This document shows positions 13,353-38,580 of a stretch of DNA of 44,547 nt, piece after piece (the first letter of the stretch is position 1; the number at the start of each line of letters is the position of its first letter). Location: the IMG/VR virus record IMGVR_UViG_3300013021_000001; one strand, written 5' to 3'. The notes under the pieces were generated by a model. That model was not told the DNA's origin. It saw nothing but the letters and a program-made list of their open reading frames with translations, and ran no database searches. Source of the stretch: a virus. Taxonomy: Duplodnaviria > Heunggongvirae > Uroviricota > Caudoviricetes. Position numbers and translations under genes: made by a program.

Positions 13353-13381
13353 TTGAAAAATGTAGTGAAGTATGATATAAT
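13353..13381 (+). promoter_or_regulatory. Consensus SigA-type promoter driving the RNA array
   Basis: TTGAAA-17 nt-(TGA)TATAAT, 20 bp upstream of the first RNA. Confidence 0.88.
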
Positions 13382-13611: not shown

Positions 13612-13696
13612 GGAAGAGTGTCCGAGTGGTTTAAGGAGACAGTTTGCTAAACTGTTACCGACAGGTTCAGGGGTTCAAATCCCCTCTCTTCCTCCA
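13612..13696 (+). tRNA. tRNA-Ser(GCT), canonical
   Basis: GGAAGAG/CTCTTCC acceptor; ACAGT-TTGCTAA-ACTGT; long variable arm; TTCAAAT T loop; encoded CCA. Confidence 0.95.
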
Positions 13697-13702
13697 TTTT
13701 TT

Positions 13703-13814
13703 CGGGAGATAGCTCAGCAGGCTAGAGCAGCTAAAATATGTCTTGTATAAGGTATTAACAGCAATCACATCCCATTAAAGGAGCGTGTCGCAGGTTCGAA
13801 TCCTGCTCTCCCGG
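13703..13814 (+). tRNA. Interrupted tRNA-like gene; 38-nt ACAGCAA module inside the anticodon stem; loop CATTAAA (apparent TTA)
   Basis: CGGGAGA/TCTCCCG; GCTC/GAGC D stem; GCT[13733-13770]CC/GGAGC; GCAGG-TTCGAAT-CCTGC. Confidence 0.85.
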
Positions 13815-13823
13815 TCATTTTTA

Positions 13824-13915
13824 GTCGCAGTGATAGTTTTTGGCAATTTAAACTATCTTCAAATAAATGCGACAGAATTAAGATTCCTCTACAAAATTGC
13901 CAGAGGGCTTAATTC
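13824..13915 (+). ncRNA. Two-hairpin RNA with complementary loops (kissing-loop candidate)
   Basis: GTCGCA/TGCGAC and GATAGTTT/AAACTATC; GAATTAAG/CTTAATTC and CCTCT/AGAGG; loops TGGCAATTT and AAATTGCCA. Confidence 0.55.
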
Positions 13916-13916
13916 A

Positions 13917-14040
13917 AAATTAATCTGTCAGCAACATGTAAACAGCCTGGCTACAATATTAAAAACAAACTGCCAGGCTTAGGAAATACATGGAAACAAC
14001 TGCCGAGCTCTGTGGGCTAGCTGTTGCGACGGGTTAATTT
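13917..14040 (+). ncRNA. Branched structured RNA, unidentified
   Basis: 13-bp closing stem AAATTAATCTGTC/GACGGGTTAATTT; GCAAC/GTTGC; CATGTA/TACATG; AGCCTGGC/GCCAGGCT. Confidence 0.6.
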
Positions 14041-14042
14041 AC

Positions 14043-14161
14043 GGTGAGGTAGCCAAGATGGAAAGGCTCCGGCGCAAAAAGAAAGTGTGACTAGTTTAGT
14101 CACCAACAGCAATTCTTCTATGTCAAGCCGGGATTCGCGGGTTCAACTCCCGTCCTCACCA
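14043..14161 (+). tRNA. Interrupted tRNA-like gene, apparent anticodon GTC (Asp); ~46-nt ACAGCAA module at the 5' edge of the anticodon loop
   Basis: GGTGAGG/CCTCACC; CCGGC/GCCGG; insert with GTGACTA-GTT-TAGTCAC hairpin then AACAGCAA (14105-14112); TTCAACT T loop. Confidence 0.85.
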
Positions 14162-14173
14162 ATTACAATTTTT

Positions 14174-14291
14174 CGAAGGGTAGCTCAACTGGTAGAGCAG
14201 CTAAAATATATGCTTAGTTTTAAGCGTTAACAGCAATCAATTTTCCTTGAGGAGGAGCTTGCTGCAGGTTCGAATCCTGCCCCTTCGACCA
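14174..14291 (+). tRNA. Interrupted tRNA-like gene, apparent anticodon GAG; 42-nt ACAGCAA module inside the anticodon stem
   Basis: CGAAGGG/CCCTTCG-ACCA; GCT[14203-14244]CC-TTGAGGA-GGAGC; short variable loop atypical for Leu. Confidence 0.85.
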
Positions 14292-14299
14292 TTTTTTAA

Positions 14300-14422
14300 G
14301 GAGAGATTCTCCTAATGGCAAAGGTACCGGCCAAAATATGTTTAGATTAAACATTAACAGCAAAAAAAGTGAAAAGCCGGCGGTCGATGACCATGGTGGT
14401 TCGAATCCACCACTCTCCACCA
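14300..14422 (+). tRNA. Interrupted Ser-like (class II) tRNA body with apparent anticodon GAA; ~37-nt ACAGCAA module
   Basis: GGAGAG/CTCTCC-ACCA; CCGGC/GCCGG; ATGTTTA-GAT-TAAACAT hairpin then AACAGCAA (14356-14363); long variable arm GGTC-GAT-GACC. Confidence 0.8.
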
Positions 14423-14459
14423 ACTTTAGGAATTAAAGATTAATTTTTTGTAATTTTTA

Positions 14460-14537
14460 AAGACGGCACACAGCAACCAAACTATTATATAATAAAAGAC
14501 GAATAAGGCTGACACTTTTTTATCCCTGAGCCGTCTT
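14460..14537 (+). ncRNA. Free-standing ACAGCAA stem RNA A
   Basis: AAGACGGC/GCCGTCTT stem, ACACAGCAACC immediately 3' of the 5' strand; internal CTGACAC loop on a weak stem. Confidence 0.7.
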
Positions 14538-14542
14538 GTTAT

Positions 14543-15913
14543 AGATTTTAGGCACTAGAAAACCTAGTAGGCTTGCCCCTATGGATGAATAGTACCTAAT
14601 TTTGAAGTAACTCATTGTAATATATAATATTAGTATAGGAGGTGAAGATAATGATTAAGAAGTTCAAGCCAATCAACAAAGCATATAAATTTAGAATTTA
14701 TCCTAATCAAGAACAACAAGAGTTAATTGATAAAACAATAGGTTGTAGTCGATTCATCTATAATGAATTTCTGGCAAAGTCTAAAGATAATCAATATAAA
14801 TCTTATTCTAAAAACTCTAAAGAGTTAACTCAACTAAAGAAAGAATATACTTGGCTTAAAGAAGTAGATTCTATAGCATTACAACAAAGTCTTAAAGACT
14901 TAGATAGAGCTTTTAAAAACTTCTTTAGTGGTAAATATAACTTTCCTAAGTTTAAGTCTAAAAGAAAAGCTAGATTATCTTATCGCACTCAAAAATTTAT
15001 TAGACCTAGTGGTAGCACTAACATTGAGATTAATGATAATAAAATCAAACTACCTAAGCTATCTTGGGTTAGATTCGCTAAATCTAAAGAGGTTAAAGGT
15101 AAAATTAATAATGTTACAGTTTCTAAATCTAAAGTAGGCAAATATTATATCTCAATTAATGTTAGTCAAGTCTTAGTAACTACTGTTAAAGACAATCAAG
15201 GTGAATTAGGATTAGATTTGGGTATTAAAGACTTTCTAACTACATCTAATGGTGAACATATATCTAACCCTAGACACTTATCGAAATATCAAGATAAACT
15301 AGCTAAACTACAAAGAAGATTAGCTAAAAAACAGAAATTCTCTAACAATTGGTATAAACTTAAAAAGAAAATTGCCAAAGTGCATACTAAAATCAAAAAT
15401 GTAAGATTGGACTTCCTTCACAAATTATCTACTAGATTAGTTAAGGAGAATCAACTGCTAGTCATAGAAGATTTAAATGTGAAGGGGATGATTAAAAATT
15501 CTAAACTGGCTAAACATATCGCAGATTGTAGCTGGTCTAAGTTTACTACTATGCTTGAATATAAAGGAAAATGGTATGACTGCATTTTACACAAAGTAAA
15601 TCGCTTTTTTGCTAGTAGTCAAACTTGTAATATATGTGGTACTAAAAACCCTAAAGTCAAAGATTTGTCTGTCAGAGATTGGACTTGTAGCTGTGGTGCA
15701 ACTCATAACAGAGATACAAATGCTAGTCTAAACCTCTTAAAACAAGGTAAATTAGACTTAGGACTTAGATAGATTACATACTGTCGGACTGACAGGAATT
15801 TACGCTTTTGGAGAGAGCATAAGACCTAACTTAATCTGATTAAATAATTAGCTTTAAGTAGGCAATTCTCGTTGAAAAAAGAATCCCCGCAGGCTTGCCT
15901 CGGGGTAGGTCAA
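14543..15913 (+). mobile_element. Non-autonomous IS200/IS605-family (IS1341-like) element, tnpB only
   Basis: Related subterminal hairpins (AGGCTTGCC core) at ~14559-14585 and ~15880-15905; right end GAAT...TCAA; TTAT just left of the left end; no tnpA. Confidence 0.85.
14642..15772 (+). CDS. tnpB: RNA-guided endonuclease TnpB
   Basis: KAYKFRIYPN HTH, GLDLGIK RuvC-I, VIEDLNVKGM RuvC-II, SSQTCNICG...CSCG Zn finger, HNRDTNASLN RuvC-III. Confidence 0.97.
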   Translation: MKIMIKKFKPINKAYKFRIYPNQEQQELIDKTIGCSRFIYNEFLAKSKDNQYKSYSKNSKELTQLKKEYTWLKEVDSIALQQSLKDLDRAFKNFFSGKYNFPKFKSKRKARLSYRTQKFIRPSGSTNIEINDNKIKLPKLSWVRFAKSKEVKGKINNVTVSKSKVGKYYISINVSQVLVTTVKDNQGELGLDLGIKDFLTTSNGEHISNPRHLSKYQDKLAKLQRRLAKKQKFSNNWYKLKKKIAKVHTKIKNVRLDFLHKLSTRLVKENQLLVIEDLNVKGMIKNSKLAKHIADCSWSKFTTMLEYKGKWYDCILHKVNRFFASSQTCNICGTKNPKVKDLSVRDWTCSCGATHNRDTNASLNLLKQGKLDLGLR

Positions 15914-15930
15914 TAAAGGGCGATATCTTG
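15773..15930 (+). ncRNA. Predicted TnpB omega/reRNA (scaffold to 15913, guide from 15914: TAAAGGGCGATATCTT...)
   Basis: Position at the IS right end as established for TnpB systems; the scaffold 5' end may overlap the tnpB 3' end. Confidence 0.65.
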
Positions 15931-16029
15931 GTGTTAGTTTATCTTTATGATTTTGTTCATTATAATATATTCTTTCGAACTTGCCGGTGCTTTTAAACCC
16001 GGTTAATTTTGTATAAAGAGGTGTAAAAA

Positions 16030-16851
16030 TTGTTTATAGCAGAAGTTGGTATTAACCACAACGGAAATTTAGAGTATGCCTATGAGTTAATAGATATGGC
16101 ATATAAAGCTGGAGCAGATGTAGTTAAATTTCAGAAAAGAAACCCTAAAAAGTGTGTGCCCAAAGACCAGTGGCATAAAAAGAAAAAAACACCGTGGGGT
16201 GAGATGGACTATATTGATTATAAATACAGAATGGAATTTGGTTATAGCGAATATGTAGCACTGAATGCTTACTGTCACAAGCTGGGAGTTAAATGGACAG
16301 CAAGTGTATGGGATATTGAATCTCTTGAATTTCTAACTGATTTTAATGTGCCGTTCATAAAAATTGCTAGTGCCTCAATCACAGATATGAAGCTTTTAGA
16401 AGCTGTAAGAAAGACAGGAATCCCTGTAGTTTTATCCACTGGTATGAGTACAGAAGAAGAAATTGATAAAGCAGTTAATGTTTTTGAAGGATATGAAGAT
16501 AAGTTAAGTATCATGCACTGCAACAGCAGTTATCCATCAGCTGAGAATGAGCTTGACTTAAGAATAATTGAAAGACTTAAAGAAAAGTATCCTTTAAATA
16601 TTATAGGTTACAGCGGCCACGAAAAAGGGATTCAACCGACAATAGCAGCTAAAGTTTTAGGAGCTGAGATAATTGAAAGACATATCACTCTAGATAAGGA
16701 TATGTGGGGCAGCGACCACAGTGCAAGTCTAGAATACAAAGAGCTAAAAGAGCTTATCGACAATCTTAACAGAGTTGATAACTGGCTCGGGAGTGATAAT
16801 ATTAAAGTTTATGAATCTGAAGAAAAAGTAAAAGAAAAACTTAGAAAATAA
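16030..16851 (+). CDS. neuB: N-acetylneuraminate synthase (NeuB/SpsE) family protein, lacking the C-terminal SAF domain
   Basis: FIAEVGINHNG, VKFQKR, KIASA, LSTGMS, MHCNSSYP, GYSGHE, IERHITLD...GSDH. Confidence 0.92.
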   Translation: MFIAEVGINHNGNLEYAYELIDMAYKAGADVVKFQKRNPKKCVPKDQWHKKKKTPWGEMDYIDYKYRMEFGYSEYVALNAYCHKLGVKWTASVWDIESLEFLTDFNVPFIKIASASITDMKLLEAVRKTGIPVVLSTGMSTEEEIDKAVNVFEGYEDKLSIMHCNSSYPSAENELDLRIIERLKEKYPLNIIGYSGHEKGIQPTIAAKVLGAEIIERHITLDKDMWGSDHSASLEYKELKELIDNLNRVDNWLGSDNIKVYESEEKVKEKLRK

Positions 16852-16859
16852 AAATCTTA

Positions 16860-16923
16860 AAGGCGCCAACAGCAAACTTACTAAATCAAACTTCCAATTT
16901 GAATCCAATAGTAATGGTGCCTT
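16860..16923 (+). ncRNA. Free-standing ACAGCAA stem RNA B displaying a Gly(TCC) anticodon stem-loop
   Basis: AAGGCGCCA/TGGTGCCTT; ACAGCAA; TTACTA/TAGTAA; TCAAA-CTTCCAA-TTTGA. Confidence 0.8.
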
Positions 16924-16931
16924 GTATATAT

Positions 16932-17062
16932 GGCAGTATAGCTCAACTGGTAGAGAGCAAACAAAGTTAATGGGCATAGGCCGGCGGGCCCTTACAGCAA
17001 ACTACAACTAACAATTCTATGTAAAAGAAAAGACGTAGGTTCAAATCCTGCTACTGCCACCA
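16932..17062 (+). tRNA. Interrupted tRNA-like gene, apparent anticodon GTA; ~55-nt ACAGCAA module between D arm and anticodon stem
   Basis: GGCAGTA/TACTGCC-ACCA; GCTC/GAGC; GGCC/GGCC hairpin, TACAGCAA (16993-17000); TTCT-ATGTAAA-AGAA; TTCAAAT T loop. Confidence 0.8.
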
Positions 17063-17107
17063 TCAGCCGGCAATTAAATTAAGTTAACCAACACTCCTTT
17101 CAAATTA

Positions 17108-17173
17108 AAGACAGATGCAGCAACCAATTCTTATGAAGGTATCATAAAACCCGCGAAATGCGGATACTGTCTT
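17108..17173 (+). ncRNA. Free-standing (G)CAGCAA stem RNA C
   Basis: AAGACAG/CTGTCTT; GCAGCAACC; internal hairpins TTATGA/TCATAA and CCGC/GCGG. Confidence 0.7.
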
Positions 17174-17198
17174 GTAGTAGAGTCTTAGGAATTAAATT

Positions 17199-17253
17199 TA
17201 GGCACAATCAGCAACCAAATCAAGGACTGTAAATCCAACAAAATATGTGCCTA
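17199..17253 (+). ncRNA. Free-standing CAGCAA stem RNA D displaying a Tyr(GTA) anticodon loop; directly upstream of the DUF2828 gene
   Basis: TAGGCACA/TGTGCCTA; ATCAGCAACC; GGA-CTGTAAA-TCC. Confidence 0.8.
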
Positions 17254-17281
17254 GTATAAAAACAAAAGGGGGATTATTAAT

Positions 17282-18787
17282 ATGTCAAATAAATTTTTAG
17301 ACGCAATGGAAGATAAAGTTAATTACACAGCAACAGAAAATGGTGCAACAGCAAAACATACAACTAAAGATAACCTACTCGATTTCTTTGCTCAGGTGGG
17401 AGCTTTAAGAAACAGGAATAAAGAAGATATTATAAGGCTTTTTGATAAGGCTTTAACAGAAGATGACCTTCTAGCAGTAAAAACTCTTTTTTATGCCAGA
17501 AATGTTAGGGGTGGGCTAGGAGAAAGAAGAATATTTAGAGTTATTTTAAAATATCTGACACAGGTAAAGCCTGAGGTAGTTCTAAAAAACTTAGAACACA
17601 TACCTCATTATGGTCGATGGGACGATTTATATGCCTTATTTGATACAAGACTTGAAGGCTATGCAGCAAACTTTATGAAAGCCCAGTTCTTTAAGGATAT
17701 CAATTCTGAAAAACCAAGCTTATTAGCAAAATGGCTTAAATCAGAAAATGCAAGCTCAGACGAAACAAAAAGACTTGCCAGAAAGACCAGAAAACATTTT
17801 GAGATGACCGCAAGAGGATATAGAAAAACACTTTCTAAGCTGAGAAAGAAAATAGGTGTTGTCGAAAGAAAAATGTCTAATAATGACTGGGAAGATATTG
17901 ACTACTCATCTGTTCCTTCAAGAGCACAAATGATTTACAATAATGCTTTTGAAAGACATGACCCTGAAGGCTACCATGAATATATTGAAAATGTTAAGTC
18001 TGGAGAGGACAAAATTAATGCCTCAACTTTATATCCTTATGATTTAGTAAGAAAAGTTATCGGTCATGGTTGGGGCCATTCAGTTTCTGAAAGTGAAAGA
18101 GATGTTTTAAATGAGCAGTGGAAAGCATTACCTGATTATATCAATGATAAAAATGAAAATTCTATTTGCGTTGTAGATACTTCAGGCTCTATGATGAGCT
18201 CAGATGGGTTGCCACTTCATATTGCCCTTTCATTAGGATTATATATGGCAGAAAGAAACTCAGGACCCTTTAAAGATAGGTTTATTACCTTCTCTGCCAG
18301 TCCTGATTTAGTAAAAGTAGAAGGCAGTGATTTTGTGCAGAAAATTAAGAACATGAGAAGAGCTCACTGGGATATGAATACCGATATCGAAGCTGTATTT
18401 AATCTTATTTTAGATACTGCTATAGAAAATCATCTCCATCAGGATGAAATACCTCAAAAGTTATACATTATTTCTGATATGGAATTTGACCAGTGTACAA
18501 ATAATAGTTATGGACTTAGTTCTCGTAACAAAGTAACTAAAACACTTTTTGAAAAGTTAAAGGAATCATTCAAATATTATGGCTACAAAATGCCGGATTT
18601 AGTCTTCTGGAATGTTGAAGCAAGAAATGAAGTTTTTCAGTTTGACAAAGACGAAAGAGGATTCCAGCTTGTAAGCGGAGCTTCTCCAGTTGTTTTTGAG
18701 CACACAATGAAGGGTGAGTTTGTTTCCGCCTACGACTTGATGCTCGATGTAATCACAGACGAACAGTACGATAGAATTACAGTTTAA
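17282..18787 (+). CDS. DUF2828-family / TROVE(Ro60)-like protein with C-terminal vWA domain
   Basis: TENGA start, LFYARNVRGGLGER, YGRWDDL, AKWL, SVPSRA, LYPYDLV; MIDAS VVDTSGSM, FITFS, NTD, ISDMEFD, VFWNV. Confidence 0.88.
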   Translation: MSNKFLDAMEDKVNYTATENGATAKHTTKDNLLDFFAQVGALRNRNKEDIIRLFDKALTEDDLLAVKTLFYARNVRGGLGERRIFRVILKYLTQVKPEVVLKNLEHIPHYGRWDDLYALFDTRLEGYAANFMKAQFFKDINSEKPSLLAKWLKSENASSDETKRLARKTRKHFEMTARGYRKTLSKLRKKIGVVERKMSNNDWEDIDYSSVPSRAQMIYNNAFERHDPEGYHEYIENVKSGEDKINASTLYPYDLVRKVIGHGWGHSVSESERDVLNEQWKALPDYINDKNENSICVVDTSGSMMSSDGLPLHIALSLGLYMAERNSGPFKDRFITFSASPDLVKVEGSDFVQKIKNMRRAHWDMNTDIEAVFNLILDTAIENHLHQDEIPQKLYIISDMEFDQCTNNSYGLSSRNKVTKTLFEKLKESFKYYGYKMPDLVFWNVEARNEVFQFDKDERGFQLVSGASPVVFEHTMKGEFVSAYDLMLDVITDEQYDRITV

Positions 18788-18798
18788 TAAAATTACTA

Positions 18799-18830
18799 AG
18801 GCAGGCCTTAATCGGTCTGTCTTTTTTTTA
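18799..18830 (+). terminator. Intrinsic terminator
   Basis: AGGCAGGCC-TTAATC-GGTCTGTCT followed by T run. Confidence 0.75.
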
Positions 18831-19302: not shown

Positions 19303-20223
19303 TTGATGGATAAAGATAAGTTAGAGGAATTAAGAGAGTACAATAAAATTTATATTTTAGGCAGTAGTAGCAATCAAGAGATTACAAATTACAAAGAAGA
19401 TGAAATTGTAATTGAAGAAAAAATTGACGGCAGTAACTTTAGGTTCTGGAGAGAAGGAGACAGGATTGTATATAGTTCCAGAAAAGTTAAAGATGTCAGA
19501 CCTCGTGATGGATGGGGCAAACAGATTGAATACCTAAATAAAAAGCTTGATGTAAATGCTCTTGGCAGAGATATTATTTATGTCGGAGAGGCAATGAAAA
19601 AACACATAGTAAATTATGATTTTGATAATTATCCACCATTTATAGGGTTTGACCTTCTGGATAAAGAAACTGGAATGCCACTTGATTATAAAGTCGCCAA
19701 AAAGACTTTTGAAAGTCTGGGTTTAGAATTTGTAAATATCTTATTTGAGGGAACAATGGAAGAATATCTTGGGATGGACAGAGATAAACTTTTAGAAATT
19801 TCTAAGTACAACTCAAAAAAGCCTGAAGGTTATGTTATTAAAAATTATAACAGGTTAAGCCAATACAATGAGCCTCTATTTGCCAAAGTTTTAAATGATG
19901 AGTATTTGGAAAGACAAAAAGCTAAAGCTAAAAAGCCAAAGCCTAAAGAAACAGACACTCCTTTAGCAGTTGAGCTTTATGTAAATGAGGCGAGAATTAA
20001 AAAGATGATAGCTAAAATGGTTGTTGATGAAGGACATAAACTTGAAAGAACGCTAATGCATAAGCTTATCCCGAGAGTTATCAAGGATTTTTTAAGAGAA
20101 AATATTCTTGAAATCTATGAGGATAATAGAATAAAAGATGTAAACTTTAATATTCTACACAAAGAAGTTCCAAAAAGATGTATTAAAGTTTTGGATAAGA
20201 TGATTGAAAGTAATGCATTCTAA
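19303..20223 (+). CDS. ATP-dependent RNA ligase, Rnl2-like
   Basis: Motif I EEKIDGSNFRF, YVGE, FIGFDL, EGYVIK, FAKV; helical C-terminal domain. Confidence 0.85.
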   Translation: MMDKDKLEELREYNKIYILGSSSNQEITNYKEDEIVIEEKIDGSNFRFWREGDRIVYSSRKVKDVRPRDGWGKQIEYLNKKLDVNALGRDIIYVGEAMKKHIVNYDFDNYPPFIGFDLLDKETGMPLDYKVAKKTFESLGLEFVNILFEGTMEEYLGMDRDKLLEISKYNSKKPEGYVIKNYNRLSQYNEPLFAKVLNDEYLERQKAKAKKPKPKETDTPLAVELYVNEARIKKMIAKMVVDEGHKLERTLMHKLIPRVIKDFLRENILEIYEDNRIKDVNFNILHKEVPKRCIKVLDKMIESNAF

Positions 20224-25166: not shown

Positions 25167-25532
25167 ATGAAACTTATAACTAAAGAGCTAGAAAAGAAAA
25201 TTGCTGGCCCTGGCGAACAGGAAGATGTTAAAGACCCAATAGTTTATATTTCATTTTTTCACGGAATAAGTCCATGGCGGTGGTACGCAACAGAATATGA
25301 CCCTGAAAGAAGAATGTTTTTTGGTTTGGTATGCGGCAATGAAAATGAGCTCGGCTATTTTTCTCTTAATGAGCTTGAAAGTGTTAATGTAAAAGGATTC
25401 AAAATTGAGAGAGATTTATACTTTGAGCCCAAAAAGTTAAGTGAAGTAATAAAAGAAAGAAAAAAACTTGAAGACACAATCTCAGATAATTTTCCGGACT
25501 GGATATACGAGGAGAGTGAAGATAATGAATAA
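25167..25532 (+). CDS. DUF2958-like protein
   Basis: WRWYATEYD...[21 protein letters not shown]...IERDLYF. Confidence 0.75.
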
Positions 25533-25827
25533 AAACAATAAAGTTTTTAATAAATGTCTTGATTGTGGACTTGTTTCAAAAAAAGCAATTTGGCTATGGA
25601 AAAATGAAGACAGAGACATAATACATTCAGATGTTGAAATAAATGAAGAAGGTTTTTTTGACTTGGATAAAATAATTTATGTAGCTGGAGGGCCTGATTC
25701 AAAAAATGCAGAAAATATAGCTGATGGTGATGCAATATGTCCAGAATGTAAAAGCCTTTATTATGTAGCCGCAGACAAATCTGAAGTAGAAACATACTTT
25801 AAAAAAAGAAAAAAAGAGGGAAACTAA
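25525..25827 (+). CDS. Zn-finger-like hypothetical protein
   Basis: CLDCG...CPECK; start moved to ATG 25525. Confidence 0.7.
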
Positions 25828-36943: not shown

Positions 36944-37324
36944 ATGAAAACCAAAAAGTTTGATGATATATTTTACAGAGATAAACTTGCTGATGAGATA
37001 GCAAATTCTAGAATTGAAATGAGCGGAGATGACCATGAAGAAGGTTCAAATTTATGGGGTGTAGAAATTCTTGTTGACGGAGCTTTGGGACAGTTTAAAA
37101 CACAGGCTCTACTTGATATTTTCACAGAAGAAGGACTGACAGAAGAAGAATATAAAAAAGACACCTTTAAATACATGGACGAGTGGACTTTATATATCAG
37201 ACAGGATGTTGAAGAAATGCTCAATGAAGAAATGTCTGAACACTTAGAAGAAGAGGAGTTTCTTGTTTTAGAACCGGGAGATTCAGGAGATATGTGGATA
37301 GCATTACAGAAAGGTGATTTTTAA
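36944..37324 (+). CDS. Hypothetical acidic protein
   Basis: Start after GGAGGG. Confidence 0.75.
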   Translation: MKTKKFDDIFYRDKLADEIANSRIEMSGDDHEEGSNLWGVEILVDGALGQFKTQALLDIFTEEGLTEEEYKKDTFKYMDEWTLYIRQDVEEMLNEEMSEHLEEEEFLVLEPGDSGDMWIALQKGDF

Positions 37325-38580
37325 TGTACACTTTTAATGGTTTATATACAGGCTTGCCTGTTAAAGTCTGGATTGATGAAAGTGAAGATTTAGATGATAA
37401 CACATTTAAAGAAGCAGTAGAAATATCAAAGCTCCCATACGCTAAATCACACATAGCATTGATGCCTGATGTACACGCTACGGGCTACCATATGCCAGTT
37501 GGCGGGGTTTTAGCTACAAAGGATGTTATAGTACCTGATGCAGTCTCGAACGATATAGGGTGCGGTGTCGCCTTTATACAGACAGATATTGAGGCCTGCT
37601 TTATGCAAACAACACACATGGATTCAGGAACAGTTGCTCAGGAACTGGTTGGGTCAATTATGAGAGATTTACCAACAGGATTTCAGCACTGCAAAAAAGA
37701 AGAAAACAAAGATAACATGGAGCTTCTAAATCTAATTAATAATTTAAACTATGGTGGAGATATTGAAGAAAAACCTCTTTTAATGGAAGCTGTCATGGAG
37801 TCTATGGAAATTGTTGGAAGTCTAGGAGGTGGCAACCACTTCGTTGAGCTACAGGAAAACAAAGAGGGTAATCTTGCAATTATGATTCACACCGGCTCCA
37901 GAAGTGTTGGCGCTAAAATAAACTCTCATTTTAGTAAGTTAGCAAAAAGTTTAAATAAAAAATGGTATGTTGATGTTTTATCTGATGATGTAACAATGCC
38001 CTTTTTACCACTCGATAGTGATGAGGGTCAGGAATATATGAAATTCATGAATTTTGCCTTAAAAGTTGCTGAGTTAAATAGAGATAAAATTATGGATTTA
38101 GTTCTAAATAAGACTATTGATTTACTTAAAAAAAGAGGTCTTATTGATAATTATAAAATTACAAGAAGATTAAATGTCCACCACAATTATGCTGCCTATG
38201 AAAATGTGAACGGTGTTAACTACATGGTGCATAGGAAAGGAGCTGTGCGGGCCAGAGGTACAGATATGGTGCCTATTCCAGGAGCAATGGGTTCATCTTC
38301 CTTTATTGCTCAGGGTCTTGGGAATGATGCTTCATTCAAGTCCTGCAGCCATGGAGCCGGGAGAACTCACACCAGAACTGCAGCCAAAGAAGAATATTCA
38401 GTGCAAGAGGTTATGGAAGATTTAAAAGAAAAGAATGTTGTACTTGGTAAAACTAATAAAAAAGATGTTGCAGAAGAATACATGAAGGCATATAAAGACA
38501 TTCATCAGGTTATGGAAAATCAAAAAGATTTAGTATCCGTGATTGATGAACTAAAAACTATTGCAGTTATTAAAGGTTAG
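37324..38580 (+). CDS. rtcB: RtcB-family RNA 3'-phosphate/5'-OH ligase
   Basis: MPDVH, NDIGCG, GGGNHFVE, HTGSR, HHNY, HRKGA, PGAMG, SCSHGAGR. Confidence 0.96.
   Translation: MYTFNGLYTGLPVKVWIDESEDLDDNTFKEAVEISKLPYAKSHIALMPDVHATGYHMPVGGVLATKDVIVPDAVSNDIGCGVAFIQTDIEACFMQTTHMDSGTVAQELVGSIMRDLPTGFQHCKKEENKDNMELLNLINNLNYGGDIEEKPLLMEAVMESMEIVGSLGGGNHFVELQENKEGNLAIMIHTGSRSVGAKINSHFSKLAKSLNKKWYVDVLSDDVTMPFLPLDSDEGQEYMKFMNFALKVAELNRDKIMDLVLNKTIDLLKKRGLIDNYKITRRLNVHHNYAAYENVNGVNYMVHRKGAVRARGTDMVPIPGAMGSSSFIAQGLGNDASFKSCSHGAGRTHTRTAAKEEYSVQEVMEDLKEKNVVLGKTNKKDVAEEYMKAYKDIHQVMENQKDLVSVIDELKTIAVIKG

What the first reader, a model, noticed from the sequence alone, without database searches (positions are those of the whole stretch)
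14460..17253. Free-standing CAGCAA stem RNAs that present bare tRNA anticodon loops
Seen: four units (14460-14537, 16860-16923, 17108-17173, 17199-17253) share a 7-9 bp closing stem with unpaired (A/G/T)CAGCAA just after the 5' strand. Unit B holds TCAAA-CTTCCAA-TTTGA, a textbook Gly(TCC) loop. Unit D holds GGA-CTGTAAA-TCC, a textbook Tyr(GTA) loop. Unit A has CTGACAC (GAC) on a weak stem; unit C has no clear anticodon loop. As in the interrupted tRNAs, the motif lies 5' of an anticodon loop. Established: anti-phage effectors (PrrC, PARIS AriB, retron PtuAB, VapC-type toxins) cut anticodon loops. Inference: minimal anticodon decoys or guides loaded on a protein.
Basis: partly seen in the sequence, partly recalled or inferred. 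Interest (0 to 1): 0.88.

Follow-up and report, generated by a model that had tools for sequence, protein, structure and literature searches.

The report
Phage Ro60-like protein's partner small RNAs
The four units are real small RNA genes sharing one "handle" (a clamp helix plus ACAGCAA) that accompanies a Ro60-shaped ring protein in hundreds of phages. They are probably Y-RNA-like partners that display pieces of tRNA; the anticodon-decoy idea remains untested.

Summary
All four units exist as described. A covariance model built only from other phages finds exactly these four in 44.5 kb (E 5e-8 to 9e-5).

- **Handle:** 5'-A, a 7-9 bp helix (WAGRCNC/GNGYCUW), 1-3 nt, single-stranded ACAGCRR, a variable core, then 3'-G(U).
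- **Protein link:** In 168 loci centred on homologues of the adjacent gene (17282-18787, DUF2828+DUF7788) I counted 205 such units on the gene's strand and none on the other. That protein's model matches only Ro60 structures over its full length.
- **Specificity:** In two bacterial genomes of about 4 Mb, the single model hit lies 129-150 nt upstream of this gene.
Anticodon-like 7-nt loops occur 67 times against 10.3 +/- 3.2 in shuffles. Only about a third of units carry one. Here unit B has a clear one, D a weak one, A and C none.

Best reading: Y-RNA-like partner RNAs of a Ro60-like protein that display tRNA mimics. The decoy or guide function is untested. Rfam does not catalogue the handle, and I found no paper describing it. 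It resembles Dictyostelium Class I RNAs. This scan has reached the same reading many times on other DNA.

The parts
14459..14539 (+). Handle RNA unit A: 5' A, 8-bp clamp helix, ACAGCAA, 52-nt core, 3' GT
   Evidence: Sequence; fold; R1 hit of 30.8 bits, E 8.8e-5. A likely orthologue in L280 shares the core motif AATAAGGCTGA.
16859..16925 (+). Handle RNA unit B: 9-bp clamp helix, ACAGCAA, core with a 5-bp stem and 7-nt loop CTTCCAA (Gly-UCC-like anticodon arm)
   Evidence: hairpin in MFE and centroid; R1 hit of 45.4 bits, E 5.2e-8; counted among anticodon-like loops.
17107..17175 (+). Handle RNA unit C: 7-bp clamp helix, GCAGCAA variant, core with two small hairpins, no anticodon-like loop
   Evidence: R1 hit of 30.9 bits, E 8.2e-5. 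L280 4781-4857 has the same clamp, AAGACAG/CTGTCTT.
17198..17255 (+). Handle RNA unit D: 8-9 bp clamp helix (TAGGCACA/TGTGCCTA), TCAGCAA variant, core with a weak 3-bp stem and loop CTGTAAA (Tyr-GUA-like)
   Evidence: R1 hit of 31.8 bits, E 5.3e-5. The same CTGTAAA loop sits on 4-5 bp stems in units of L027, L072, L140 and L128.
17282..18787 (+). Gene for the Ro60-like ring protein (DUF2828 + DUF7788/vWA), the proposed protein partner; starts 27 nt after unit D
   Evidence: Pfam. AF2 model with pLDDT 80. The top 11 Foldseek PDB hits are all Ro60/Rsr/phiLo Ro60 over full length, E 4e-7 to 3e-4, TM about 0.5-0.58.
13353..13381 (+). Strong sigma-70-type promoter (TTGAAA-17-TATAAT with TG) at the head of the RNA array
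   Evidence: 11 of 12 matches, the best in the region. Analogous promoters precede unit arrays in L002 and in L003 and L004.
18798..18823 (+). Intrinsic terminator closing the array-plus-DUF2828 transcription unit
   Evidence: 10-bp stem followed by a T run. No terminator-like site lies at any of the four units.
13703..14424 (+). Four tRNA bodies (13703-13814, 14043-14161, 14174-14288, about 14313-14424) carrying the same handle in circularly permuted form (hairpin ...CTTA-loop-TAAG..., 2-3 nt, ACAGCAA) 5' of the anticodon loop
   Evidence: Rfam tRNA hits with 53-nt inserts; sequence; hairpin-type handles listed.
16932..17059 (+). Fifth tRNA body with a 71-nt insert holding CCCTTACAGCAA
   Evidence: This copy gives the only match in the window, a weak one, to Rfam Dicty_Class_I_RNA (14.4 bits).
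19303..20223 (+). Rnl-type RNA ligase, the RNA-repair context of the locus
   Evidence: Pfam RNA_ligase, E 5.8e-20.
37324..38580 (+). RtcB RNA ligase, the RNA-repair context of the genome
   Evidence: Pfam RtcB, E 1.7e-91.

Best explanation
Units A-D are genes for small non-coding RNAs of about 57-80 nt. They belong to a widespread, uncatalogued family that I call handle RNAs. Each RNA pairs its two ends into a 7-9 bp clamp helix with a near-fixed sequence (5'-A|WAGRCNC... paired with ...GNGYCUW|G(U)-3'). After 1-3 nt comes a single-stranded ACAGCRR box. This handle is most likely the binding site for the Ro60-shaped ring protein (DUF2828/DUF7788) encoded just downstream, in the way the terminal stem of a Y RNA binds Ro60. 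The rest of each RNA is a variable module that the particle displays. It is often a piece of tRNA: an anticodon arm (B, weakly D), a T-arm, or a whole or permuted tRNA body in other phages. The RNAs are made from the array promoter at 13353 together with the handle-bearing tRNA bodies and the protein. The particle probably works in the conflict over tRNAs, by tethering or occupying enzymes that recognise tRNA parts, alongside the phage's Rnl and RtcB ligases. Shown: the family, its handle, the covariation, the strand-specific linkage to the gene, the Ro60 fold and the enrichment of anticodon-like loops. Inferred: expression as discrete RNAs, direct binding and the cellular role.
For: (1) Independent model R1 recovers only A-D in the window. 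(2) The same architecture lies next to DUF2828 homologues that share 25-60% identity. These include an IMG/VR phage L002, Bacillus phage Thrax1 and Listeria phage A511, Mycobacterium phage Nicholas and a Felix-O1-like coliphage, and 160 viral and bacterial loci. (3) Consensus-handle units number 205 on the gene's strand and 0 on the other; 95 of the 160 loci have at least one within 4 kb. (4) Whole-record searches: all 6 hits in the 167-kb Thrax1 genome lie in or next to the tRNA array just upstream of the gene. In two bacterial genomes of 3.9 and 4.2 Mb the single hit lies 129-150 nt upstream of the gene. (5) Helix pairs 1, 4, 6 and 7 change on both sides while A-U, G-C and C-G at pairs 2, 3 and 5 are fixed. 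G-U pairs occur, which fits RNA rather than DNA. (6) The protein model matches Ro60 structures over full length. (7) Modules include T-arm, closed acceptor and D-arm layouts like YrlA (L086 hit of 37.9 bits; list). (8) Anticodon-like loops: 67 against 10.3 +/- 3.2 in shuffles. In short units, 25 against 4.5 +/- 2.0, with C32 in 20/25, A37 in 23/25 and 5-bp stems in 15/25. (9) Context: Rnl and RtcB here; Rnl, RtcB and a CCA-adding enzyme after the gene in the nearest relative with a long contig. (10) Literature: Bas63 gp130, described there as structurally similar to Ro60 (I did not check its family), counters the Ppl defence, and its authors guessed at Y RNAs (PMC11482910). The Listeria phage CKA15 homologue is Rsr-like by HHpred and lies downstream of highly transcribed non-coding regions (PMC12282133).
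Against: There are no binding or expression data for these RNAs. About 40% of DUF2828 loci show no consensus unit within 4 kb. Of ten pattern-found units with at least 3 kb of flank on both sides, five have no detectable DUF2828 nearby. The handle lacks the Ro60-binding motif of known Y RNAs (GNCGAAN0-1G, PMC4201824), and Rfam YrlA does not match the units. Dictyostelium Class I RNAs, which share the handle signature, are reported to bind an RRM protein directly (PMC7919456), so the direct reader of the handle could be another protein. Stem covariation counts are inflated because my detector required pairing.
Confidence: 0.7

Rival explanations
1. Anticodon decoys. The displayed anticodon arms act as bait or competitive inhibitors for host anticodon nucleases, or as guides, and this is the main purpose of the family.
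For: Anticodon-like loops are enriched about six-fold and keep canonical C32, U33, A37 and A38 on 5-bp stems. Lys-UUU-like and Tyr-GUA-like loops recur, and those tRNAs are known nuclease targets (my own knowledge, not tested here). The locus sits with RNA-repair ligases. A Ro60-like phage protein counters a defence system (PMC11482910).
Against: Only 61 of 190 units carry such a loop, and 101 of 190 show no tRNA-like feature by my crude classifier. The loops cover more than 25 anticodons with no dominant one. The stems do not copy real tRNA anticodon stems. Unmodified mimics may not be recognised by nucleases that read modified bases. In this window only B is convincing.
Confidence: 0.17
2. 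Processing or intron-like signal. The handle marks sites where an endonuclease and the phage ligases (Rnl, RtcB) excise it, maturing interrupted or permuted tRNAs. The free-standing units would then be decayed remnants or by-products.
For: The same handle sits just 5' of the anticodon loop in ordinary and permuted tRNA bodies, here and in L006, L011, L017, L044, L050 and L077. By eye, removing it restores a 5-bp anticodon stem in some. Ligases are encoded nearby.
Against: Free-standing short units have no tRNA body to mature, yet they are the majority, are conserved and have their own promoters. ARAGORN on 21,840 in-silico excisions gave no single consistent product. No candidate endonuclease is linked to the units.
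Confidence: 0.07
3. The handle is read by a protein other than DUF2828, either a host factor or an unlinked phage protein, and the linkage to DUF2828 reflects only a shared tRNA-island location.
For: Half of the well-flanked pattern hits lack a nearby DUF2828 gene. Class I RNAs with the same signature are reported to bind an RRM protein (PMC7919456).
Against: In two bacterial genomes with no tRNA island involved, the only hit lies directly upstream of the gene. In 168 loci all 205 units lie on the gene's strand. A unit typically ends 20-150 nt before the start codon.
Confidence: 0.08
4. DNA-level repeats (miniature transposable elements or recombination sites), or plain terminators or leaders with no RNA function of their own.
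For: They are inverted-repeat-bounded, repeated and clustered. A TnpB element lies next to unit A.
Against: There is absolute strand bias (205 to 0). G-U pairs would be mismatches on the other strand. The cores are tRNA-like. No T tract follows and no terminator call is made at any unit. The units occur before, after and far from the gene, so they are not its leader.
Confidence: 0.03

Closest known systems
Ro60/Rsr with Y RNAs, especially bacterial and mycobacteriophage YrlA (Rfam RF02553; Chen et al. 2014, PMC4201824) and Thermus phage phiLo Ro60 with Yrl1/Yrl2 (PMC12135203)
   Same: Both have small RNAs whose 5' and 3' ends pair into a stem bearing a conserved protein-binding motif. Both are encoded within a few kb of a ring-shaped HEAT+vWA protein, on the same strand. 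Both carry a second module that mimics tRNA and lie near RtcB-type repair genes.
   Different: The protein is DUF2828/DUF7788, not Pfam TROVE; it is related to Ro60 by fold only, and a sequence profile search of the PDB found no Ro60. The motif is ACAGCRR next to a WAGRC helix, not GNCGAAN0-1G. The YrlA model does not match the units. Each phage holds several units, up to 7 counted by my detector and at least 8 read by eye in L280. Modules range from a bare anticodon arm to whole tRNA bodies, and the handle also occurs circularly permuted inside tRNAs.
Class I RNAs of dictyostelid social amoebae (Rfam RF01414; Kjellin et al. 2021, PMC7919456)
   Same: The paper describes RNAs of about 60 nt with a short stem joining the 5' and 3' ends, conserved termini (start AAG, end CUGU), an unpaired 11-nt motif next to the 5' strand and a variable remainder, with genes in clusters. 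The Rfam consensus reads CCUUACAGCAA. The phage handle starts A-AAG, ends CUU-GU and carries ACAGCAA at the same place.
   Different: Units A-D gave no RF01414 hit at E up to 10. The only hit, 14.4 bits against a gathering score of 41.5, is the tRNA-embedded copy. Class I RNAs are reported as unique to Dictyostelia, use a eukaryotic upstream promoter element and bind an RRM protein. Whether dictyostelids have a DUF2828 protein was not tested. The lead came from earlier notes of this scan.
Phage tRNA arrays and tRNA-repair kits used against tRNA-cleaving defences (T4 Pnk/Rnl against PrrC; my own knowledge, not tested here)
   Same: Genomic setting among tRNA genes and RNA ligases, and a possible role in protecting translation from tRNA-targeting nucleases.
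   Different: The units are not decoding tRNAs (no ARAGORN or Rfam tRNA call) and no enzymatic activity is implied.

Membership tests
Y RNA (partner of a Ro60-type protein) | The 5' and 3' ends pair into a terminal stem that carries the protein-binding site | tested here: met
   All four units fold that way. Across 41 units from other loci, 4 of the 7 helix pairs change on both sides, with the caveat that pairing was required at detection.
Y RNA (partner of a Ro60-type protein) | Encoded close to a Ro60 orthologue and on its strand | tested here: met
   Unit D ends 27 nt before a gene whose model matches Ro60 structures over full length. The count is 205 to 0 by strand over 168 loci, and bacterial genomes show a single hit next to the gene. 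The protein is not a Pfam TROVE member.
Y RNA (partner of a Ro60-type protein) | Ro60-binding sequence (GGUCCGA in animals, GNCGAAN0-1G in YrlA/YrlB/Yrn1) | tested here: not met
   The handle reads WAGRCNC-N1-3-ACAGCRR. The motif definition comes from PMC4201824.
Y RNA (partner of a Ro60-type protein) | Physical association with the protein | not testable with these tools
   Needs RIP, EMSA or cryo-EM.
YrlA (Rfam RF02553) | Score at or above the gathering threshold (69 bits) | tested here: not met
   No hit on A-D. Two weak hits (24.7 and 17.5 bits) span junctions of adjacent tRNAs. The mycobacteriophage unit scores 37.9 bits on its tRNA-like core only.
Dictyostelium Class I RNA (Rfam RF01414) | Short terminal stem plus an unpaired conserved motif ending in ACAGCAA next to the 5' strand, with AAG start and CUGU end | tested here: inconclusive
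   The architecture and ACAGCAA match, and the termini are similar (AAG... and ...CUUGU) (PMC7919456). The CCUU part of the motif is not conserved in the phage units, and units C and D have G or U before CAGCAA.
Dictyostelium Class I RNA (Rfam RF01414) | Score at or above the gathering threshold (41.5 bits) | tested here: not met
   The only hit in 16850-17265 is 14.4 bits at 16989-17039, inside the interrupted tRNA.
tRNA | Cloverleaf recognised by ARAGORN or Rfam RF00005 | tested here: not met
   No call on A-D. B and D hold only an anticodon-arm-like hairpin.
Intrinsic terminator | GC-rich hairpin with a short loop followed by a T run | tested here: not met
   No terminator-like site at the units. 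The loops are 39-60 nt and GT plus mixed bases follow.

The most novel reading that the evidence does not exclude
The handle RNAs and the DUF2828 ring protein form a virus-encoded particle that presents interchangeable tRNA parts, anticodon arms above all, to capture or block host enzymes that attack or read tRNAs. The same handle in Dictyostelium Class I RNAs would then mean that this orphan eukaryotic RNA class is an offshoot of one ancient Ro-like RNP family shared by phages, giant viruses and amoebae.
Probability: 0.2. Interest if true: 0.9.

Novelty: new variant of a known kind. Interest (0 to 1): 0.7.

Why it matters
Ro60/Y RNA particles are known from animals, about 5% of bacteria and a few phages. 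What the tRNA-like parts of Y RNAs do remains unclear. This family would extend the principle to a much larger protein family: at least 8,000 homologues in one search, and 711 phage records including Listeria A511/P100, Felix O1 types, and Bacillus and mycobacterial phages.

It has a defined, easily mutated RNA handle and a natural library of displayed tRNA fragments. That makes the function of tRNA mimicry directly testable in standard phage-host pairs. It would also give a candidate mechanism for a reported anti-defence phenotype, and a possible relative for the unexplained Class I RNAs of social amoebae.

Tried and rejected
1. My first detector required GT after the 3' strand, so the apparently invariant GT was circular. 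Without it, the 3' flank is G in 188 of 190 units, followed by T in 132, A in 30 and C in 22.
2. A PDB search with a sequence profile of the protein found no Ro60. Only the fold comparison did.
3. ARAGORN on 21,840 in-silico excisions of the handle from interrupted tRNAs was too permissive to define splice sites.
4. The near-identical relative L282 has no differences over the 430-nt RNA region, but also none over neuB, against 19 in the DUF2828 gene. This looks like mosaicism and says nothing about constraint.
5. The small ORF after the DUF2828 gene is not conserved between phages, so it is no third component.
6. Alignment A2 was too diverse for a collection scan. No whole genome is held for this window.
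7. The most abundant non-coding transcript of Listeria phage CKA15 (26,236-26,727) maps to a different, larger RNA region, not to the handle units at 25,283-25,611. That paper therefore gives no direct expression evidence for them.
8. The supplementary tables of Chen et al. 2014 and the Burroughs and Aravind 2016 paper are not held.
9. An exact pattern scan of viral contigs gave mostly chance matches: 73 of 119 had no closing stem.
10. The candidate fifth unit at 13917-14040 (12-bp stem followed by CAGCAA) lacks the WAGRC helix and model R1 does not find it.
Full report
**Observation.** Four units pair their ends into a helix of 7-9 bp. (A/G/T)CAGCAA follows the 5' strand after 0-2 nt, and GT follows the 3' strand.

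| Unit | Coordinates |
|---|---|
| A | 14459-14539 |
| B | 16859-16925 |
| C | 17107-17175 |
| D | 17198-17255 |

- Each unit folds better than its shuffles, with z from -2.3 to -3.2.
- CAGCAA occurs 44 times in the window against 21.9 +/- 4.7 expected. Ten copies lie on the + strand between 13759 and 17214, all but one in non-coding DNA.
- Unit B's 5-bp stem with loop CTTCCAA is part of the MFE and centroid structure.
- Unit D's CTGTAAA loop has only a 3-bp stem and is not in the MFE.
- Unit A's CTGACAC is not in a credible stem, and C has no such loop.
- ARAGORN and Rfam call none of the four a tRNA.
- None looks like a terminator.

**Surroundings.**
- One strong promoter (13353-13381) heads the array, and one terminator (18798-18823) follows the next gene.
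- That gene (17282-18787) carries DUF2828 and DUF7788.
- Its AlphaFold model (pLDDT 80) matches Ro60 proteins over the full length and nothing else comparably. The hits are Thermus phage phiLo Ro60, Deinococcus Rsr, and Xenopus and human Ro60, with E 4e-7 to 3e-4 and TM about 0.5-0.58.
- A sequence profile alone did not reach these structures.
- An Rnl-type ligase follows at 19303, and RtcB lies at 37324.
- Five tRNA bodies in the array carry 53-71 nt inserts holding ACAGCAA.
- A TnpB element and a neuB gene also sit inside the array.

**The family.**
- Homologues of the protein are very numerous: at least 8,000 in one search and 711 phage records.
- I first found the same RNA design beside a 25%-identical homologue, with four units directly downstream (L002).
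- I then found it upstream of the gene in Bacillus phage Thrax1 and Listeria phage A511.
- It lies directly downstream in the GC-rich Mycobacterium phage Nicholas, and among the tRNAs of a Felix-O1-like coliphage.
- In 80 viral and 80 bacterial or archaeal-MAG loci centred on homologues, plus eight other loci and the window, a detector found 205 units on the gene's strand and none on the other. The detector asked for a WAGRC-type 5' strand, at least 7 bp, and CAGCRR within 4 nt.
- Of the 160 loci, 95 had at least one unit within 4 kb. There were 190 non-redundant units.
- Consensus: 5' flanking A in 180/190; helix pairs A-U/U-A/G-C, A-U, G-C, A-U/G-C, C-G, N-N, C-G; then 1-3 nt; then ACAGCAA (129), ACAGCAG (16), GCAGCAA (13) or ACAGCGA (10); 3' flanking G in 188/190.
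- In a 41-sequence alignment, four of the seven helix pairs change on both sides. Because pairing was required at detection, this is weaker evidence than it looks. The strand bias and a stem-only search (265 hits against 24, of which 179 carry CAGCAA) do not depend on that requirement.
- A covariance model built from those 41 units, none from this window, finds exactly A-D here.
- In whole records the model hits only the tRNA array and the gene's upstream region in Thrax1, and only the stretch just downstream of the gene in Nicholas.
- In two bacterial genomes of about 4 Mb it gives one hit each, 129-150 nt upstream of the DUF2828 gene. Only 150 of roughly 2,000-2,600 first-look candidates were scored in each of those genomes.

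**Two topologies of one handle.**
- In the interrupted tRNAs, ACAGCAA follows the 3' strand of a local hairpin. That strand has the same WAGRC consensus, and its partner ends in CTT followed by G.
- This is the clamp helix closed by a loop instead of by the RNA termini.
- Such copies also occur in tRNA bodies of L006, L011, L017, L044, L050 and L077.

**What the units carry.** Cores range from 20 to more than 100 nt. They include bare hairpins, T-arms, tRNAs lacking an acceptor stem, and permuted tRNAs laid out like YrlA (L086 scores 37.9 bits to YrlA on its core only).

Loops of 7 nt with Y32, U33 and R37 on stems of at least 4 bp, T-loops excluded, were counted against 200 dinucleotide shuffles.

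| Set | Observed loops | Shuffle mean +/- sd | Shuffle maximum |
|---|---|---|---|
| All 190 units | 67 | 10.3 +/- 3.2 | 19 |
| Units with cores up to 60 nt | 25 | 4.5 +/- 2.0 | 11 |

- The loops in the short units go beyond the filter: C32 in 20/25, A37 in 23/25, A38 in 18/25, and a 5-bp stem in 15/25.
- The CUGUAAA loop of unit D recurs on proper stems in other phages, including inside permuted tRNA-Tyr-like units.
- Only 61 of 190 units have such a loop, spread over more than 25 anticodons.

**Interpretation.**
- The evidence fits a Y-RNA-like arrangement. A conserved terminal handle docks on a Ro60-shaped protein, and a variable module that often mimics tRNA is displayed.
- It differs from described Y RNAs in protein family, in binding motif (PMC4201824 gives GNCGAAN0-1G), in the number of units per genome and in the permuted tRNA-embedded form.
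- The decoy or guide idea is compatible with the data but untested.
- The nearest relative with a long contig places Rnl, RtcB and a CCA-adding enzyme right after the gene and holds eight or more units before it. This supports a role in tRNA damage or repair conflicts.
- Two papers come close without defining the RNAs. The Bas63 gp130 study reports a Ro60-like protein that counters the Ppl defence and guesses that some neighbouring tRNAs are Y RNAs (PMC11482910).
- The CKA15 study reports an Rsr-like virion-associated protein downstream of highly transcribed non-coding regions (PMC12282133). Its top region is a different RNA.
- No paper in the library holds both ACAGCAA and Ro60. The five papers that mention DUF2828 are unrelated.

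**Dictyostelium lead.**
- Earlier notes of this scan pointed to Class I RNAs.
- I checked the Rfam consensus, which reads CCUUACAGCAA.
- I also checked the paper's description: short terminal stem, start AAG, end CUGU, unpaired motif next to the 5' strand, about 60 nt, clustered genes.
- The likeness is real, but the units do not reach the Rfam threshold. Common descent is open.

**Status within the scan.** The same protein-RNA pairing has been reported many times from other genomes (290 notes hold my search words). My reading was reached from this window's own data and agrees with them.

Noticed in passing
window 13818-14042: A strongly folded non-coding stretch (-70 kcal/mol, z -6.0) with three domains. 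The last (13917-14040) is closed by a 12-13 bp stem followed at once by CAGCAA, but lacks the WAGRC helix and model R1 does not find it. It may be a divergent handle RNA or a different RNA.
   Followed up: partly
window 13703-14424 and 16932-17059: Five tRNA bodies are interrupted 5' of the anticodon loop by a hairpin plus ACAGCAA, the same handle circularly permuted. By eye, removing the insert restores a 5-bp anticodon stem in at least two (14043 Asp-GUC-like, 14174 GAG loop).
   Followed up: partly
window 14642-15930: An IS200/IS605-type TnpB gene (OrfB_IS605, Cas12f1-like TNB, HTH) is inserted between unit A and neuB. About 150 nt of likely guide-RNA scaffold follow the stop codon.
   Followed up: no
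window 16030-16851: A NeuB-family (sialic-acid-synthase-like) gene sits inside the RNA array. It and the RNA region are 100% identical in metagenomic contig L282, while the DUF2828 gene differs at 19 of 1,506 bases, which suggests recent mosaic exchange.
   Followed up: partly
L004 4450-5040 (Listeria phage A511): A non-coding region of about 590 nt with its own TTGACA/TATAGT promoter lies between tRNA-Pro and gp59. It corresponds in position to the most abundant transcript region of phage CKA15 (26,236-26,727 in PMC12282133). It is a large unexplained RNA, not of the handle type.
   Followed up: no
L280 451-1896 and 7038-10996: The nearest relative with a long contig encodes a GlnRS/GluRS-like synthetase upstream of the DUF2828 gene, and Rnl, RtcB and a CCA-adding enzyme downstream of it. 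This is a compact tRNA-repair neighbourhood.
   Followed up: no
L175 (IMG/VR contig labelled GVMAG): Three handle units in tandem are followed by tRNA genes on a contig labelled as a giant-virus MAG. No DUF2828 was detected in the part held.
   Followed up: no
L088, L090: The best genome-collection matches to the DUF2828 protein (46-47% identity) lie on contigs of MAGs labelled Promethearchaeota. These may be binned viral contigs.
   Followed up: no
window 14135-14198 and 13667-13728: Weak Rfam YrlA matches (24.7 and 17.5 bits) span the T-arm and acceptor end of one tRNA and the D-arm of the next. They are an artefact of tandem tRNAs that mimics the permuted YrlA layout.
   Followed up: yes
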